A stretch of DNA of 64,000 nt, taken from an uncultured Gammaproteobacteria bacterium (GTDB lineage Bacteria > Pseudomonadota > Gammaproteobacteria > JAURND01). Below are positions 21,001 through 27,000 of this stretch, in pieces. The number at the start of each line of letters is the position of its first letter. The first letter of the stretch is position 1. The position numbers were made by a program. The DNA lies in contig CAVZRN010000010.1 in assembly GCA_963777715.1 (NCBI GenBank), forward strand, positions 22,211 to 86,210, in the 5' to 3' direction.

Positions 21001-24000
21001 GATTATGGCGATACATCGTGTTTCACAAAAATCGCTACCATTAATGCTTATTGGCGCAGGGTTACCGCAATTAATTGCCAAGGCTGGCAATTCCAAGTCC
21101 TATGCAGAACGATTGTTTGCTTATCCAGAAATTGGTCCTCTGAAAAAAGAGGATGCTATTATTGCTCTACAACAACCCGCAAAGGAGCTTGGGGTATCAT
21201 TTTCTGCAAATGCCCTGGATAAAATTTACCAAATCACTAAGGGCTATCCTTATTTTTTACAAGAATGGGGATACCACGCCTGGAATATAGCGCGACACTC
21301 CCCCATCAGCGTCGCAGACGTAGAAAATGCAAGTAAATTATCCATTGAAAATCTTGATAAAAATTTCTTTCGCACTAGACTTGAACGACTGACACCAAGT
21401 GAGAAAAAATACGTGCGCGCACTGGCGGAATTAGGATCAACCCCACAACGCTCTGGAGATATCGCCGCTAAATTAGGCAAGACGGTTGAGCAAGTTGCTC
21501 CCCTGCGCGCTCAATTAATTAATAAGGGGATGATTTATAGTCCAGCGCATGGTGATACGACATTTACTGTACCACTGTTTGAAGAATTCCTCCGCCGCGA
21601 AATTCCTGTCTTCTCCGCGAAGGAGCATTATTGAGGACGATTAATCACCATGCTATCGTTTAACAAACATCCGATACCACGCGTTTACGCGAAAAATGAG
21701 TTCAGTATCCGGTCATATCCTAACCAGTGGGATGCGATCGCGCTGTGCCTGGTATTAGCGATCCTGGCATTATTTGGCCTGGGCGCAAGGGGAATGGCCA
21801 CCCCCTATCACCTGGGCGAGCCAATCGTCATTTCATTTGGACCCCATCTACTTGCCCTATTACGCCTTTCGCAGCGTGCTGCGCATGGCCCTGGCGTTAA
21901 TATGTTCGATGTTATTTACGCTAGTGGTCGGTACTGCCGCCGCCAAAAGTCGTCATGCGCAGCGCCTACTCATCCCTCTCATTGATATTATGCAATCGGT
22001 GCCAGTGTTGGGTTATCTCTCCATCACCGTGGTGGGATTTATTGCCCTGTTTCCCAATAGTTTGTTAGGGCCGGAATGCGCAGCCATTTTTGCGATTTTC
22101 ACTGCGCAGGTGTGGAATATGACGTTGAGTTTCTACCAAAGTCTGCGCACTATTCCTTATGATCTTAAGGAAGCAGCGCGCATGTTTCATCTATCTGCCT
22201 GGCAACGTTTTTGGCGTTTGGAAGTACCCTTTGCCATGCCAGGTTTACTGTGGAATGTGATGATGTCGATGTCGGGTAGTTGGTTCTTCGTGGTGGCGTC
22301 TGAAGCCATTACAGTTAATCAACAAAACATTACCCTGCCAGGCATTGGTTCTTATATAGCCCTGGCGGTGCAACAAGCAAACGTTCACGCGGTGTTGTAT
22401 GCAATCTTGGCAATGTTTGTGGTGATCTTATTATATGATCAAATTTTATTCCGACCACTGAGCGACTGGATTCAAAAATTTAAATTTGAGCAAACGGGTG
22501 AAGATGAAGGAACCAGCTCGTGGATCGTGCATTTATTTCGCCGTACGCATTGGCTACGACACACCAGCAGCCTGTTAGCTAAACTTTGGGATGGGTTTGT
22601 CAATCTACGACCGTTTCTCAAAAAACCTGGCGCATTTAGCGGCTTTGATTATTACCACCGTAAATCGAAATATGGTGTGGTAATTTGGTATGTGCTGGTA
22701 AGTTTGTCATTGCTGGCCTCTGCTATTATCTTGGTGCAATTTGTATTTGCATCGGTGTCACTGCCAGAGGCTGGACATGTGATTTATTTTGGCGCCATCA
22801 CTGCATTTCGCGTTTTGGTATTGATCGTGTTGAGTTCGCTGGTATGGATTCCGCTCGGCGTGTGGATTGGTATGCGTTCTGATATTGCGCATGCGGCACA
22901 ACCGATTATTCAGTTTTTAGCCTCGTTTCCAGTGAACTTAGTTTATCCCATCGTGGTATTAGTCATCGTGCGCTTCGATTTAAACGCGAATATTTGGACC
23001 TCTCCGCTGATGATTTTAGGCTCGCAGTGGTATATTGCCTTTAATGTCATCGCTGGCGTGAGCGCATTGCCAAAAGATTTACGTCAAACCGCCAGCTTGT
23101 TTAATGTGCGCGGCTGGCTATGGTGGAAGCGATTGATATTGCCCGGTATCTTTCCCTATTACGTGACTGGCGCTATTACAGCAGCCGGAGGCGCATGGAA
23201 CGCCAGCATTATTGCGGAAGTCGTGCATTGGGGGAAAACCACCATTGTAGCCACTGGTCTGGGCGCGTATATTACTAATCAATCTACCAGCGGCGATTTC
23301 CCACGCCTGGCATTGGGTATTGGTATTATGTGTATCTATGTGTTAGTGATTAATCATATTCTCTGGCGACCGCTGTATCGCATGGCGTCGGAACGGTTTC
23401 GATTGGATTGAGCATTAAGTAAGTTTTATTTTACGTAAATTAACATGATTACAATGGAATTTTTTTATGCTAAAATATAAAAATAACGATATTTCGTTGA
23501 AAACTGGAATATATGCTCAAAAAAATCAAAATAAGCAACTTTTATAGCATCGGCAATGAACAAGAAATGTCCTTAGCAATCAACGCGAAAGACGTTCTGG
23601 ATGATTCCGCACGCAAACATGCAAAAGATGGATATCTAAACATAGTTACCTGTATCATCGGGCCTAATGCCTCCGGCAAAACAAACCTGCTCAAAGCGTT
23701 TGGGTTTCTTGCTTGGTTTGTAGAAAAATCCTATACATCGCTTAAGGCGGACGAGCCAATCCCGATCGAACCACACCAACTGCATAAAGAAAAACCTACA
23801 AAAATAGAAATTGAATTTTATCAAGATAGCGATTTATATCGTTATATCATCCAGTTCAATAAAGAACGGGTTGTCGAAGAACAATTGGAGCGACGCGTAG
23901 AAAGGTTTACCTCTGTATTTAAACTCATACGTGATAAAAATACCGTCCATATAAAAACTGGTAACGTCCTTAAACTCAGCGAAAACGATGAAAAGCGCCT

Positions 24001-27000
24001 CAAGGATAGACACAATATATCTTTTCTTTCTGCATTAATTGACCTTGGCTACTTACCGGCAATAACGTTCTTTAAAAATTTCGTATCGAATATAAACCAA
24101 ACAGGCCATATGCGTGCATCAATACTTGAAGAAGCGTTTGAGACATCAAATATCTTGTATAACAATAAGGAATTTATGGAAGAAATGTTATCTTTTTCGA
24201 ATAAGGTCGGCCTCGGAATTTCTGAATTTGCTTTTGACGAAATCACATTGAGAAAACTGGAGAATCCTCAGAATACAATTAAAAAAAACATGCTACGATG
24301 CATTCATACCTCCAAAGATAAGAAATTCAGCCTACCCATCTATGAAGAATCTAACGGAACCCAGCGAAGTTATTATTTGTTCTCTAAGATTATTCCCATT
24401 TTAAAATCAGGTGGCCTTGTTGTATTCGACGAGATTGAAGATGGCCTACATCCTTATATGGCAAAACAGTTAATCTCATTATTTGAGAATAAGGACACCA
24501 ATCCACATAATGCCCAATTGATTTTTATTACCCATCAACATCTATTGCTCAACGACAGAACTAAAACTCAAATATTCATTACTGAAAGAAATCCCGATTC
24601 CTTTGAAACAGAAGTATATCGTCTGGATGACGTAGAAGGGGTACGCAATGATGAAAACTATTTCCACAAATACATGGCTGGCGCGTACGGTGGAGCTCCT
24701 GATATTAAATGGCTTTAGGCAGCGCGTATGGGTAAAAATAAGCGTCCTAGAAAATTAACTGTGTTTGGTTGTGTTGAAGGTCATCGCGAGCAAGCATTTA
24801 TTGACCTCCTCAGAGAAATTTATCAACCCGAGTTACATAACATTGCATTTTACCCGGAAAATGCTAATGGCGGTGGCGCTGATAATATTGTTATTGCAGC
24901 GCTGCGCAAGTCTGATCGTGATCGATCATTTGCATGGCTTGATGAAGATTTTGAACCCAAAGCCAGCCCACTGTCAAAGGAGGTTCGCAAACAGCTCGCC
25001 AAATCCTGGAGTGTTAGTGTTGATGATACAAAAGCATTGTTAGAATGTCCGCTGGGTAAACTCCAATCAACATTCAATCTTGACCATAGAAAACCTACCC
25101 TGATCATCTCCCAACCAGTATGCTGTGATTCGCTCATTTTACAAATACTTGGTCATGATCTACCTTACGGTGCTTACTATCCTGCCCGACGTAACCAACA
25201 AATTAATGATCTTAAAAATAAACTAGATCAGCTGATGCAACACCCCAAATCTACTGAAGAACAAACTGCCTATTACCGAAAAGTGTTAAATAAAAATATC
25301 CTCGAGCAAAAACGCAAAAAAATTGCTGAGTTGAATTTACTTATCTCGATGTTAACAAAATGATCACGACAGTGTTATCCTAGTGTATTTACCTGGCGTT
25401 GGGTATTGGTATTATGTGTATCTATGTGTTAGTGATTAATCATATTCTCTGGCGACCGCTGTATCGCATGGCGTCGGAACGGTTTCGATTGGATTAAAAC
25501 TATGACTACAACCCCACTGATTCAAGTCAACGGCATCTGCAAATCATTTCGCAAGAGTGAGCACCAGGATTTGCTGGTATTAAACGATGTCAATTTCGCC
25601 ATGTGCGAAGGTGAAATCATCGCGCTGCTGGGAAAATCCGGTTCCGGTAAATCAACCTTAATGCGCATTATCGCTGGCCTGATTCGTCCCAGCGCGGGAG
25701 AGGTGTTATATCGCAGCGAGGCCGTTAAGGGTCCATTGCGCGGATTGTCGATGGTGTTTCAAAGCTTTGCCTTATTTCCCTGGCTGACTGTATTACAAAA
25801 CGTTGAACTGGGGCTGGAAGCGCAAGGTATTTCACGCACCGAACGGCGCGCACGCGCCTTAGAAGCCATCGATATTATCGGCTTGGATGGTTTTGAGTCA
25901 GCCTACCCGAAGGAATTATCGGGCGGCATGCGCCAACGTGTTGGTTTTGCACGCGCCCTGGTAGTGAACCCGGAAGTATTATTAATGGACGAGCCATTTT
26001 CAGCGCTGGATGTATTAACCGCCGATAACTTGCGTAACGATTTAATTGATTTATGGCATGACAAAAAAACCAATTTGCGCTGTATTTTATTGGTCACTCA
26101 CAACATCGAGGAAGCAGCATTGATGGCTGACCGTATCTTGGTGTTTAGCAGTAACCCAGGCAAAATCCGCGGCGAGGTGAAGGTTGATATTCCACAACCA
26201 CGCAGTGATGAGAACGAAAAAGTACAAGCCATCGTCGATGAAATTTATACCCTGATGACTACTGAAATCAGTCAAACTACAGGCTTGGCGACGAAACATA
26301 CCCCCACCACCATTGGTTACCGCTTGCCCAAGGTCGGTGTATCGGAAATTACTGGCTTCTTGGATACACTGAATTCATCGGATTATCAGCACAAAGTCGA
26401 TCTGCCTGAGTTGGCGGCGGATTTAAATTTAGATGTGGATAAATTATTTTTAATCACTGAAGCGCTGGAAATCTTACATTTCGCCGATGTGTCCAAGGGT
26501 GATATTGCGTTGACACGGGCGGGGAAACATTTTTCTGAATCGGATATTTTGGAACGTAAACAAATTTTTGCCGCGCATTTATTGCGTTATGTGCCGCTTG
26601 CACGCCATATCCGCCGCGTGTTGGATGAACGCCCAGAGCATCGCGCGTTTGAAGATCGTTTCTTGCGCGAATTAGAAGATCATTTGAGTGAGGGCGCTGC
26701 CGAGGAGGTGTTGGAGACGGTAATTAACTGGGGACGTTACGCAGAGTTATTTGCTTATGACTACAACTCAGGGGTGCTGAGCTTGGAGAATCCACAATAA
26801 GAGGAGAGTAACATGCCTATTAATCTTTTAGACCCACAAGAGCTAGCCCAATTTGATAGTTTACAAGAAGACATTACCACGAGAATAAATAAATTAATAG
26901 GAGTTGATCCGCAATTGAAATATCTTAATAGCGTCGTGAACGCTATAAACGATATTAGATTAAAGCTGGCAAAAAATTATGTTGATACTAGCGAGCTTCC

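What the first reader, a model, noticed from the sequence alone, without database searches (positions are those of the whole stretch)
23306..25497. Two-gene AbiL-like cassette inserted between ABC permease and ATPase genes, flanked by a 106-bp duplication
Seen: 1980 bp of AT-rich DNA (23412-25391) carries an AAA_21-type ATPase and an RloB-like gene. It lies between two copies of the last 106 bp of the permease gene (2-3 mismatches). The right copy keeps the original 4-nt spacing to the ABC ATPase ATG. Established: ATPase plus RloB pairs correspond to AbiLi/AbiLii-type abortive-infection modules. Inference: this is a minimal defence islet that integrated at the 3' end of the permease gene while regenerating it. 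No integrase is present, so the mobilisation mechanism is unclear.
Basis: partly seen in the sequence, partly recalled or inferred. Interest (0 to 1): 0.65.

Follow-up and report, generated by a model that had tools for sequence, protein, structure and literature searches.

The report
Phage-defence gene pair inserted with duplication
A foreign two-gene anti-phage module (an ATPase plus a nuclease) sits inside a transporter operon between two copies of the last 106 bases of the upstream gene, so both host genes stay intact; this recombinase-free way of inserting was described before for restriction-modification genes, and here it carries a different kind of defence system.

Summary
Window 23306-23411 and 25392-25497 are a 106-nt direct repeat with 2 silent mismatches. 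They bracket 1,980 bp of low-GC DNA that holds two intact genes.

- **Gene 1** is a clear AbiLi-type ABC ATPase (PADLOC E = 8.7e-70).
- **Gene 2** is a divergent TOPRIM protein. Its PADLOC AbiLii hit is weak, it fails the Pfam RloB cut-off, and its predicted fold matches OLD-nuclease TOPRIM regions.
- **Ancestral state:** permease followed directly by ATPase is the usual order in about 50 of 60 relatives. None carries the cassette or the duplication.
- **A discrete unit:** the same cassette family (promoter, palindrome and two genes, about 1.95 kb) occurs alone among housekeeping genes at about 10 unrelated sites.
- **A second independent insertion** sits 30 nt inside rlmN with a 30-nt duplication, in three lineages. 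The two repeat copies co-vary within each genome, so the repeats still recombine.
- **No mobility genes:** no integrase, transposase or terminal inverted repeats, and no copy on plasmids or phages.

The closest precedent is "insertion with long target duplication", described for restriction-modification units (Furuta et al. 2010). This is a new member of a known kind, of moderate interest. How the duplication arises is still unknown.

The parts
21774..23411 (+). ABC transporter permease gene (545 aa from the most upstream start), complete, ending in TGA
   Evidence: Pfam BPD_transp_1, two stretches, E = 1.5e-23. Orthologues in 60 loci are followed directly by the ATPase gene in about 50 of them.
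23306..23411 (+). Left copy of the 106-nt duplication. It is the functional 3' end of the permease gene (last 34 codons plus TGA).
23412..23512 (+). Cassette leader. It holds a promoter-like site (23448-23476, ATTACA-17-TAAAAT with an upstream TG) and a palindrome, AACGA-TATT-TCGTT (23485-23498), that is invariant across the cassette family.
   Evidence: Alignment of 12 cassettes from different contexts and the promoter scan. Homology with cassettes in other genomes begins 47-84 nt before the ATG for the window, and up to 138 nt before it between other pairs.
23513..24718 (+). AbiLi-type ABC (AAA_21) ATPase, 401 aa, intact
   Evidence: PADLOC AbiLi E = 8.7e-70; Pfam AAA_21 E = 5.9e-34. Walker A GPNASGKT at residue 50, signature-like SNGTQ at 280, Walker B LVVFDE at 302.
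24728..25363 (+). AbiLii-like TOPRIM protein, 211 aa, intact; the predicted nuclease effector
   Evidence: PADLOC AbiLii E = 6.6e-5. Invariant E17, E21, G48-G49, W70, D72-E73-D74. AlphaFold model with pLDDT 90.2. Top Foldseek PDB hits are OLD-nuclease C-terminal regions: 6nk8_B at E = 2.3e-3 and prob 0.97, and 6njv at TM 0.46. Not a Pfam RloB member.
25364..25391 (+). 28-nt tail of the insert. Homology with other cassettes ends at the AbiLii stop codon, give or take 5 nt.
25392..25497 (+). Right copy of the 106-nt duplication. This non-functional remnant of the permease 3' end still encodes the identical 34 aa, ends in TAA, and carries the GGA ribosome-binding-like motif for the ATPase gene.
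25502..26800 (+). ABC transporter ATP-binding gene (432 aa), intact, 4 nt after the right copy. It now lies downstream of the cassette, and no + strand terminator is predicted in between.
   Evidence: Pfam ABC_tran E = 3.1e-33 and AAA_assoc_C E = 5e-45; NCBIfam SaoA-like E = 2.8e-64; terminator scan.

Best explanation
What it is (shown). The insert is an intact, compositionally foreign, self-promoted two-gene AbiL-type anti-phage module: an ABC ATPase plus a small TOPRIM protein. It sits in the permease-ATPase junction of a conserved ABC-transporter operon. The two ends of the 1,980-bp insert are joined to target positions 106 bp apart, so the last 106 bp of the permease gene lie on both sides and both transporter genes remain complete.

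How it got there (inferred). The structure fits the recombinase-independent process that Kobayashi's group named 'insertion with long target duplication'. A discrete DNA unit, here promoter, operator-like palindrome and two genes, is captured at a chromosomal break or stalled fork by illegitimate joining or template switching. Joints that land behind each other create a duplication. Inside or at the ends of useful genes, only such gene-restoring events survive selection.

What happens afterwards (partly shown at a second site, inferred for the window). The flanking repeats stay recombinationally active. They are homogenised by gene conversion or by excision and re-integration through the repeat. 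Recombination between them would delete the cassette precisely and restore the ancestral operon.

What it does (by analogy, untested). Like PARIS and lactococcal AbiL, the ATPase probably holds the TOPRIM nuclease inactive until a phage trigger appears. The nuclease then cleaves nucleic acid and aborts the infection.
For: - The anatomy and statistics of the repeat are solid, and an independent assembly supports both junctions.
- The cassette is foreign in composition: GC3 is 0.32-0.37 against 0.51 in the flanking genes.
- The uninterrupted junction is ancestral. About 50 of 60 orthologous loci have the permease followed directly by the ATPase gene, and none has the cassette or the duplication.
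- The cassette is a discrete unit. Homologues (45-67% amino-acid identity) always occur as the same isolated pair among housekeeping genes at about 10 unrelated sites. Between loci with different flanks, homology runs only from 47-138 nt before the AbiLi ATG to the AbiLii stop codon, give or take 5 nt. That nearly coincides with the DNA enclosed by the duplications.
- A second, independent insertion has the same architecture. In L061, L080 and L084 the cassette lies after codon 10 of rlmN. A remnant copy of the first 30 nt is on the left, and the true rlmN start is regenerated on the right, overlapping the AbiLii stop codon.
- The rlmN repeats co-vary. L061 has ACG-GAA-ATA-TTG in both copies and L080 has ACA-GAG-ATT-TTA in both copies, while L084 retains only a 16-nt identical core.
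- In the window both mismatches lie at the extreme edges of the repeat (positions 7 and 105 of 106). The chance of one mismatch falling within 7 nt of each end under uniform mutation is about 0.009.
- No mobility machinery is present: no recombinase in the insert or nearby ORFs, no terminal inverted repeats, and no match in plasmid, phage or IMG/VR collections.
- There is a published precedent: restriction-modification units inserted with variable duplications of more than 30 bp up to about 420 bp, with no mobility genes, some overlapping gene 3' ends, mostly in naturally competent species (PMC2853133).
- The defence assignment rests and on the review PMC13064643.
Against: - No conspecific genome with an empty site could be retrieved. 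The nearest relatives share about 73% amino-acid identity, so the pre-insertion sequence is inferred rather than seen.
- The molecular mechanism of long target duplication has never been demonstrated, even for restriction-modification units.
- Most other contexts of the cassette show no flanking duplication (L062, L065, L067, L074, L075, L077, L082). Several of these lie next to tRNA genes, which hints at other routes such as integrase-type hotspots.
- The third repeat-flanked case (L063, 84 nt at 92%) involves a REP/MITE-like element with 27-nt inverted ends and is ambiguous.
- The edge-mismatch argument rests on only two mismatches.
- The anti-phage function and the PARIS-like mechanism are by analogy only. 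The second gene scores below family thresholds.
Confidence: 0.6

Rival explanations
1. Campbell-type integration. A circular molecule carrying the cassette plus one copy of the permease 3' end integrated by a single homologous crossover within the 106 bp. Such a circle could be excised from a related donor that already had the cassette after the permease gene. The result is repeat-cassette-repeat.
For: A single crossover gives exactly this architecture. A crossover anywhere in the interior of a slightly diverged 106-bp homology would leave one donor-specific difference at each outer edge, as observed at positions 7 and 105. 106 bp is above the minimal length for RecA-mediated recombination (own knowledge). 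Co-variation of the rlmN repeats shows that the repeats do recombine.
Against: This only moves the problem back one step, because the first insertion next to the permease gene still needs another mechanism. The 30-nt rlmN repeat is marginal for RecA-mediated integration. No circular or plasmid-borne copy was found. No donor lineage with the cassette at this operon is known; L007 has a different RloA/RloB pair at a different position.
Confidence: 0.2
2. Site-specific recombination in trans. The cassette is a non-autonomous integrative element (CIME-like or satellite-like) whose 106-bp and 30-bp repeats are attL/attR sites recognised by an integrase encoded elsewhere in the genome or on a helper element.
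For: Direct repeats that regenerate a gene end are the hallmark of integrase-mediated islands. Five other cassette contexts are within 500 nt of a tRNA gene (L062 Lys, L067 Ala, L082, L065 Pro, L077 Met). Identical cores with diverging edges resemble att sites.
Against: There is no integrase in the insert or in the window ORFs scanned. The target sequences are unrelated to each other (permease 3' end, rlmN 5' end, intergenic DNA) and the repeat lengths vary (106, 30, none), whereas an integrase family normally has a defined att core. The cassette carries no conserved end sequence resembling either target. At 106 bp the repeat is much longer than typical att cores, as PMC2853133 argues for its 30-bp threshold.
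Confidence: 0.1
3. Self-mobilisation. The cassette's own OLD-like TOPRIM nuclease and ABC ATPase make the staggered break and promote their own insertion, which would make the pair a selfish mobile element.
For: The same family is found at many unrelated sites as a tightly bounded unit with nothing else inside. There are two independent duplication-flanked insertions. Furuta et al. proposed that DNA-breaking activity of the cargo underlies long target duplication.
Against: No biochemical or genetic evidence supports it. There are no conserved terminal sequences for recognition. Most copies lack flanking duplications. The rlmN insertion has been vertically stable across lineages with about 76-83% nucleotide identity, so movement is rare at best.
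Confidence: 0.07
4. Assembly artefact. The duplication or the placement of the cassette is a mis-join in a metagenome-derived assembly.
For: The window seems to come from an uncultured Legionellales-like organism, and repeats of about 100 nt are a typical place for assembly errors.
Against: The two copies differ at two positions. An independent contig (L079) contains both the repeat-cassette and the cassette-repeat junction, each with its copy-specific variant, and breaks exactly where a k=31 graph would branch. The same architecture is seen in three other assemblies at rlmN.
Confidence: 0.03

Closest known systems
Insertion with long target duplication of restriction-modification gene units (Nobusato et al. 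2000, Gene 259:99, cited from memory and as ref. 37 in Furuta, Abe & Kobayashi 2010, NAR 38:2428, PMC2853133)
   Same: A small, compositionally foreign unit of defence genes that encode a nuclease is flanked by long direct repeats (more than 30 bp, variable length) that are a duplication of the target. There are no integrase, transposase or inverted repeats. Some repeats overlap the 3' end of a host gene. The repeats can recombine.
   Different: The cargo here is an AbiL-type ATPase plus TOPRIM pair, not a restriction-modification system. No conspecific empty site is available. One family supplies two independent events, at a gene 3' end (106 bp) and at a gene 5' end (30 bp). Concerted evolution of the repeats is documented here.
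Lactococcal AbiL (AbiLi/AbiLii; Deng et al. 1999) and Campylobacter RloA/RloB pairs
   Same: A two-gene operon: an AAA_21/ABC ATPase followed by a protein of about 200 aa predicted to be a TOPRIM/OLD-type nuclease. AbiLi is the best PADLOC match (E = 8.7e-70). For lactococcal AbiLii too, the TOPRIM assignment rests on structure prediction against 6NJV (PMC13064643).
   Different: The second gene is only marginally similar to the AbiLii model (E = 6.6e-5; 5 of 24 homologues) and falls below the Pfam RloB threshold. It forms its own family of about 330 representative clusters. The cassette is chromosomal, in Legionellales-like and other Gammaproteobacteria, rather than plasmid-borne in Lactococcus. 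No phenotype has been tested.
PARIS (AriA/AriB) anti-phage system
   Same: An ABC ATPase partnered with a TOPRIM nuclease. The ATPase also matches AriA-type models (E = 2.1e-38). PARIS provides the likely working model: an ATPase scaffold releases a TOPRIM effector on sensing a phage protein.
   Different: No similarity to AriB/DUF4435 was detected for the second gene. The trigger and the nuclease target are unknown.
Integrase-dependent defence islands at tRNA/tmRNA genes (for example the I55-family elements, PMC12595487) and non-autonomous CIMEs
   Same: Defence cargo flanked by direct repeats that preserve the target gene. Some relatives of this cassette lie next to tRNA genes.
   Different: There is no integrase. 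The repeats are much longer than the 14-bp core, variable in length, and derived from unrelated protein-coding targets. The unit is only 2 kb.

Membership tests
AbiL (AbiLi/AbiLii) two-gene abortive-infection system | First gene is an ABC/AAA_21 ATPase that matches the AbiLi model | tested here: met
   PADLOC AbiLi E = 8.7e-70 (best of 65 models); Pfam AAA_21 E = 5.9e-34; Walker A, signature and Walker B motifs intact.
AbiL (AbiLi/AbiLii) two-gene abortive-infection system | Second gene matches the AbiLii model | tested here: inconclusive
   PADLOC AbiLii E = 6.6e-5 over residues 46-206; only 5 of 24 family members reach E < 0.01.
AbiL (AbiLi/AbiLii) two-gene abortive-infection system | Second gene has a TOPRIM/OLD-type nuclease fold with a catalytic Glu and a DxD motif | tested here: met
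   Invariant E17/E21 and D72-E73-D74. AlphaFold pLDDT 90.2. Top PDB matches are OLD C-terminal regions, prob 0.97, though TM is only 0.36-0.47. Motif register agrees with a bona fide RloB.
AbiL (AbiLi/AbiLii) two-gene abortive-infection system | Adjacent, co-oriented ATPase then nuclease operon | tested here: met
   The two genes are 9 nt apart on the same strand, and the arrangement is conserved in every homologous locus examined.
AbiL (AbiLi/AbiLii) two-gene abortive-infection system | Confers phage resistance by abortive infection | not testable with these tools
   Needs cloning and phage challenge.
Pfam RloB (PF13707) | Score above the gathering threshold (31.5 bits) | tested here: not met
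   The window protein gives no hit at E < 1, and 1 of 24 homologues hits at E = 0.025. Distant relatives found with the family profile reach 30.5 and 25.7 bits. A true RloB in L007 scores 103 bits, and hhalign against it gives prob 10.7%.
PARIS (AriA/AriB) | Effector is AriB (DUF4435 TOPRIM) | tested here: not met
   No AriB or DUF4435 hit in Pfam or PADLOC.
Insertion with long target duplication (criteria of Furuta et al. 2010) | Target duplication longer than 30 bp flanking the insert as direct repeats | tested here: met
   106 bp with 104/106 identity.
Insertion with long target duplication (criteria of Furuta et al. 2010) | Insert shorter than 20 kb, with no mobility genes and no high-copy repeat | tested here: met
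   The insert is 1,980 bp and holds only two ORFs. There is no recombinase nearby and the repeat occurs only twice in the window.
Insertion with long target duplication (criteria of Furuta et al. 2010) | A related genome has an empty site holding one copy of the repeat | tested here: inconclusive
   At the level of gene order, about 50 of 60 relatives have the uninterrupted junction. The closest shares only about 73% amino-acid identity, so no nucleotide-level empty site is available. Look-ups for conspecific contigs failed.
Insertion with long target duplication (criteria of Furuta et al. 2010) | Insert contains restriction and modification gene homologues | tested here: not met
   The cargo is an AbiL-type ATPase plus TOPRIM pair, with no methyltransferase. 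This is the respect in which the case extends the known class.
Integrase-mediated genomic island or CIME | Tyrosine or serine recombinase in the element or adjacent to it, with a defined att core (often the 3' end of a tRNA gene) | tested here: not met
   No recombinase. The nearest tRNA is 9 kb away. The targets at the two duplication-flanked sites are unrelated.
Transposon or insertion sequence | Terminal inverted repeats, a transposase, and a short fixed-length target duplication | tested here: not met
   No inverted repeats at the insert ends, no transposase, and duplications of 106 and 30 bp.

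The most novel reading that the evidence does not exclude
AbiL-type ATPase plus TOPRIM pairs could be autonomous selfish elements. [quoted passage not shown] The repeats then serve for excision, re-integration and amplification. This is the 'virus-like life cycle' that Kobayashi's group hypothesised for restriction-modification systems, extended to a second, unrelated class of nuclease-based defence system. 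It would point to a general recombinase-free mobility mode for defence islets.
Probability: 0.07. Interest if true: 0.85.

Novelty: new member of a known kind. Interest (0 to 1): 0.5.

Why it matters
How small defence islets that carry no mobility genes move between genomes is an open question in the study of phage defence. This locus, together with its rlmN counterpart, is a compact and well-delimited example:

- a 2-kb unit with known boundaries;
- two independent insertions with 106-bp and 30-bp gene-restoring duplications;
- evidence that the repeats keep recombining.

It shows that 'insertion with long target duplication', so far documented for restriction-modification units, also applies to an ATPase plus TOPRIM abortive-infection module. 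That supports the idea that nuclease-encoding defence cargo is prone to this kind of insertion.

It also gives a testable system: outward-facing PCR for circles, read mining for empty sites, and capture assays. Finally, it defines a divergent AbiLii/RloB-like family of about 330 representative clusters that current Pfam and NCBIfam models miss, and a conserved palindrome that probably regulates it.

Tried and rejected
**Searches that found nothing or were blocked**
- Empty site in a close relative. 
- A vehicle for the cassette. Searches of plasmids, phages and IMG/VR with the 211-aa protein gave no hits.
- Known RNA in the cassette or leader. Rfam found nothing at E of 1 or below inside the cassette.
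- Sequence-profile search of the PDB with the family alignment gave only chance-level hits.
- The metagenome scan gave only 10 loci, mostly too short for flank analysis.

**Ideas considered and dropped**
- The 'GTTCGACTCC' block left of the cassette in L062, L067 and L082 looked like a tRNA 3' end. ARAGORN places the real tRNAs 290-450 nt further upstream, and the block does not fold as a T-arm. It is part of the region shared by these three loci. Its meaning is unresolved.
- L063/L064 as a third clean target duplication. This was set aside because the 84-nt repeat belongs to a REP/MITE-like element with 27-nt inverted ends, complete on the left and partial on the right.
- Other inserts at the same permease-ATPase junction in relatives (L005, L025, L029, L054, L055). 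They are unrelated genes without duplications.
- A shared target motif between the two duplicated segments. Only a CGGTTT hexamer is common, which is consistent with chance (read).
- Terminal inverted repeats at the insert ends. None were found.

Full report
**1. The observation.** Window 23306-23411 and 25392-25497 are a 106-nt direct repeat with two mismatches. The first is at position 7 (A/G), a silent GCA/GCG alanine change. The second is at position 105, where the stop codon is TGA in one copy and TAA in the other. Both copies therefore encode the identical last 34 residues of the permease. In a flank-against-flank blastn the repeat scores E = 1.8e-53, and the best opposite-strand control is a 10-mer. 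Homology ends abruptly at both edges. The enclosed 1,980 bp (23412-25391) has GC 0.373 and GC3 0.32-0.37, against GC 0.477 and GC3 0.51 for the two transporter genes. The right copy is followed by AACT and then the ATG of the ABC ATPase gene at 25502. A 2,049-nt contig from an independent read-set assembly (L079, Logan ERR11523676) is 100% identical to window 23380-25428. It stops exactly 30 nt beyond each repeat mismatch, which is what a k=31 graph does at a branching repeat. Both junctions, each with its copy-specific variant, therefore exist in reads.

**2. The two genes.** ORF 23513-24718 (401 aa) is an ABC-type ATPase. Its best PADLOC match is AbiLi (E = 8.7e-70), and it matches Pfam AAA_21 at E = 5.9e-34. 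The Walker A, signature-like and Walker B motifs are all intact.

ORF 24728-25363 (211 aa) is harder to place.
- Pfam RloB does not match it, and only 1 of 24 homologues matches, at E = 0.025.
- NCBIfam has no family for it.
- PADLOC AbiLii scores E = 6.6e-5, and only 5 of 24 homologues reach that model.
- A PDB sequence-profile search gives nothing.

Other evidence supports a TOPRIM assignment.
- An alignment of 24 homologues shows invariant E17, E21, G48-G49, W70 and D72-E73-D74, a TOPRIM-like Glu plus DxD signature.
- An AlphaFold model is confident (pLDDT 90.2).
- Its best PDB matches are the TOPRIM-containing C-terminal regions of OLD nucleases: 6nk8_B at E = 2.3e-3 and prob 0.97, and 6njv at TM 0.46, with GajA further down the list. 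The TM-scores are modest.
- hhalign against a bona fide RloB found in relative L007 (Pfam RloB E = 2.7e-29) is weak (prob 10.7%). It nevertheless places VEG-x-RE on CEGETE, GG-x-D on GNDP, and W-x-DED on F-DKD.
- The family profile finds 333 representative clusters. Two of ten distant ones scanned carry sub-threshold RloB similarity, at 30.5 and 25.7 bits against a 31.5-bit cut-off.

So gene 2 is a divergent sister of RloB/AbiLii with a TOPRIM core, but it is not a Pfam RloB member. A 2026 review notes that the TOPRIM assignment of lactococcal AbiLii also rests on structure prediction against 6NJV. It adds that AbiL's mechanism is untested and is presumed to resemble PARIS (PMC13064643).

**3. 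The host locus.** A scan of 185,579 species genomes with the permease returned 60 loci. The closest share 69-73% amino-acid identity and are uncultured Gammaproteobacteria; a Legionella MAG shares 58%. In about 50 of these loci the ABC ATPase gene follows the permease directly. None has the cassette or a duplicated permease end. A few relatives have other, unrelated inserts at the same junction, without duplications (L005, L025, L029, L054, L055). L007 carries a different AAA_21 ATPase plus true RloB pair just after the ATPase gene. The neighbourhood of this operon therefore accumulates foreign DNA repeatedly. No conspecific empty site could be obtained.

**4. The cassette is a discrete travelling unit.** Homologues of the 211-aa protein (45-63% identity) are always preceded by an AbiLi-type ATPase. 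They sit as an isolated pair among housekeeping genes at unrelated sites:
- between a response regulator gene and rlmN (L061, L080);
- between a 172-aa ORF downstream of CTP synthase and rlmN (L084);
- after tRNA-Lys (L062), after tRNA-Ala (L067), and after another tRNA (L082);
- between groEL and ompA (L063);
- next to tRNA-Pro (L065);
- and at further sites.

Pairwise blastn between loci with different flanks shows where the shared DNA begins and ends. It starts 47-138 nt before the AbiLi ATG and stops at the AbiLii stop codon, give or take 5 nt. That nearly coincides with the DNA enclosed by the duplications, which runs from -101 to +28 in the window and from -80 to -3 at rlmN. The leader holds -35-like and -10-like hexamers and a palindrome, AAC(G/A)A-N4-T(C/T)GTT, that is invariant in 12 of 12 cassettes (window 23485-23498). 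The unit has no terminal inverted repeats, no known RNA family and no recombinase. It was not found on plasmids, phages or viral contigs. The only mobility-related gene in the neighbourhood is a split TnpB 3 kb downstream.

**5. A second, independent duplication-flanked insertion.** In L061, L080 and L084 the cassette lies after codon 10 of rlmN.
- On the left is a decayed copy of the first 30 nt of rlmN, behind the native upstream region. In L084 its ATG still overlaps the stop codon of the preceding ORF.
- On the right the true rlmN start is regenerated and overlaps the AbiLii stop codon as ATGA.
- The three loci are 76-83% identical from the left copy through rlmN, which is similar to or higher than the identity of their other flanks. 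This was therefore one ancient insertion, inherited vertically.
- The repeat copies nevertheless co-vary. L061 has ACG-GAA-ATA-TTG in both copies and L080 has ACA-GAG-ATT-TTA in both copies. L084 keeps only a 16-nt identical core.
- Lineage-specific synonymous changes present in both copies cannot be explained by independent drift. The repeats are being homogenised, either by gene conversion or by excision and re-integration through the repeat.

The window shows the same signature. Its only two mismatches lie at positions 7 and 105 of 106. The chance of one mismatch falling within 7 nt of each end under uniform mutation is about 0.009. That argument rests on only two sites.

A third repeat-flanked case (L063, 84 nt at 92%) involves a REP/MITE-like element with 27-nt inverted ends, so I leave it as ambiguous. 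The remaining contexts show no flanking repeat longer than about 16 nt. All of those are intergenic, and several are near tRNA genes.

**6. How it most likely works.**
- *Arrival.* The architecture matches the recombinase-free 'insertion with long target duplication' described for restriction-modification units. Those units were inserted with variable duplications of more than 30 bp up to about 420 bp, had no mobility genes, sometimes overlapped gene 3' ends, and occurred mostly in naturally competent species. The authors suggested a link to the DNA-breaking activity of the cargo, and noted that the repeats support amplification (PMC2853133).
- *Proposed mechanism (inference).* The cassette DNA was captured by illegitimate joining or template switching at a break or stalled fork. 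Within or at the ends of useful genes, only events whose joints overlap, and so create a duplication, leave both genes intact and survive. This would explain why duplications are seen exactly where the insert hits coding sequence (the permease 3' end and the rlmN 5' end). It would also explain why the cassette is co-oriented with the operon.
- *Expression of the downstream gene.* No + strand terminator is predicted in or after the cassette. The downstream ATPase gene can therefore still be transcribed by read-through, and its ribosome-binding region is preserved in the right copy.
- *Maintenance.* The repeats recombine (shown at rlmN, inferred here). Recombination between them would delete the cassette precisely.
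- *Function (by analogy).* The system is probably an AbiL/PARIS-like abortive-infection module in which the ATPase restrains or activates the TOPRIM nuclease on sensing phage.

**7. Rival explanations.**
- Campbell-type integration of a repeat-bearing circle fits the architecture and the edge mismatches. It does not explain the first insertion, and 30 nt is marginal for RecA.
- An integrase acting in trans fits repeats that preserve gene ends and the tRNA-adjacent relatives. It does not fit the unrelated targets, the variable repeat lengths or the absence of any recombinase.
- Self-mobilisation by the cassette's own nuclease is not excluded but has no direct support.
- Assembly error is contradicted by L079 and by the three rlmN assemblies.

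**8. Novelty and verdict.** The defence module is a new, divergent member of the AbiL/RloAB/PARIS-like group of ATPase plus TOPRIM systems. The insertion mode is a known but mechanistically unexplained kind, seen here with a non-restriction-modification cargo and with evidence that the repeats evolve in concert. I rate it a new member of a known kind, with interest about 0.5. It is not a surprise to someone who knows the restriction-modification literature. It is, however, a clean and testable example bearing on how integrase-less defence islets move.

Noticed in passing
window 23485-23498 (and the equivalent position in L061-L084): A palindrome, AAC(G/A)A-N4-T(C/T)GTT, lies about 15-20 nt before the AbiLi start codon. 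It is invariant in 12 of 12 cassettes that share only 42-67% protein identity, and it follows a conserved TATGCT -10-like box. It is probably an operator or a 5'-UTR hairpin. It matches no Rfam family.
   Followed up: partly
L007 9290-11201: A relative with the orthologous ABC operon carries a different AAA_21 ATPase (438 aa, 29% identity to the window's AbiLi) plus a bona fide Pfam RloB (E = 2.7e-29) immediately after the ABC ATPase gene, with no flanking repeat. The same operon neighbourhood has therefore acquired ATPase plus TOPRIM pairs twice, independently.
   Followed up: partly
L005 7638-9682; L025 7593-9071; L029 7629-12174; L054 7599-9590; L055 751-1663: Other relatives have unrelated inserts of 0.9-4.5 kb at the same permease-ATPase junction. 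These include a low-GC 472-aa ORF, glycosyltransferase and epimerase genes, and a BLUF-like ORF. None has a duplication. The junction is a recurrent insertion point.
   Followed up: partly
L061 3655-3658, L080 6645-6648, L084 5554-5557: In the rlmN clade the AbiLii stop codon overlaps the rlmN start codon (ATGA). A housekeeping rRNA/tRNA methyltransferase gene has thus become translationally coupled to, and probably transcribed with, a defence cassette.
   Followed up: no
L063 6543-6713 and 8676-8800 (also L064): A REP/MITE-like element of about 170 nt with 27-nt terminal inverted repeats (GGGCGACCGCCGGATCGCCCCTACAGC) lies upstream of the cassette, and a partial direct copy lies downstream. 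No other copy occurs in the 26 kb fetched.
   Followed up: partly
L062 6429-6504, L067 4782-4857, L082 1-40, L065 8723-8799, L077 3231-3307: Five cassette contexts lie within 100-500 nt of a tRNA gene. In L067 the tRNA-Ala 3' end is duplicated about 170 nt downstream, an att-like scar. L062, L067 and L082 also share a 'GTTCGACTCC...CTTCC' block at -138 to -105 that is not part of a tRNA.
   Followed up: partly
window 28649-29797: A split TnpB (HTH_OrfB_IS605 and OrfB_IS605 in one ORF, the Cas12f1-like TNB domain in the next). It is probably a frameshifted IS605-family remnant, and no TnpA is nearby.
   Followed up: no
window 14124-20061: A NACHT-like ORF runs into a 1,724-aa ORF that contains about 13 tandem 108-111-nt (HEAT-like) repeats at 16189-17694. 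By eye it also has OTU-like and ankyrin-like regions and low-complexity Ser/Pro tracts. This resembles an effector of an intracellular (Legionellales-like) bacterium. tRNA-Ala lies just upstream, at 14016-14091.
   Followed up: no
window 20429-21634: An AAA_16/ATPase_2 (STAND/ORC-like) ATPase gene lies immediately upstream of the ABC operon. It gives only weak PADLOC hits, and its role is unknown.
   Followed up: no
window 7877-9478 and 10161-11504 (repeats at 8528-9590 and 10572-11616): Two adjacent paralogous minus-strand genes share 77-91% nucleotide identity. The one scanned has no Pfam domain. A further 85-nt repeat links 10050-10134 and 12712-12796.
   Followed up: no
window 35246-37063; 37094-38317; 41435-42601: A cNMP-binding patatin-like phospholipase and two AAA_14/DUF4143 ATPases. 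The window is rich in accessory-type genes.
   Followed up: no
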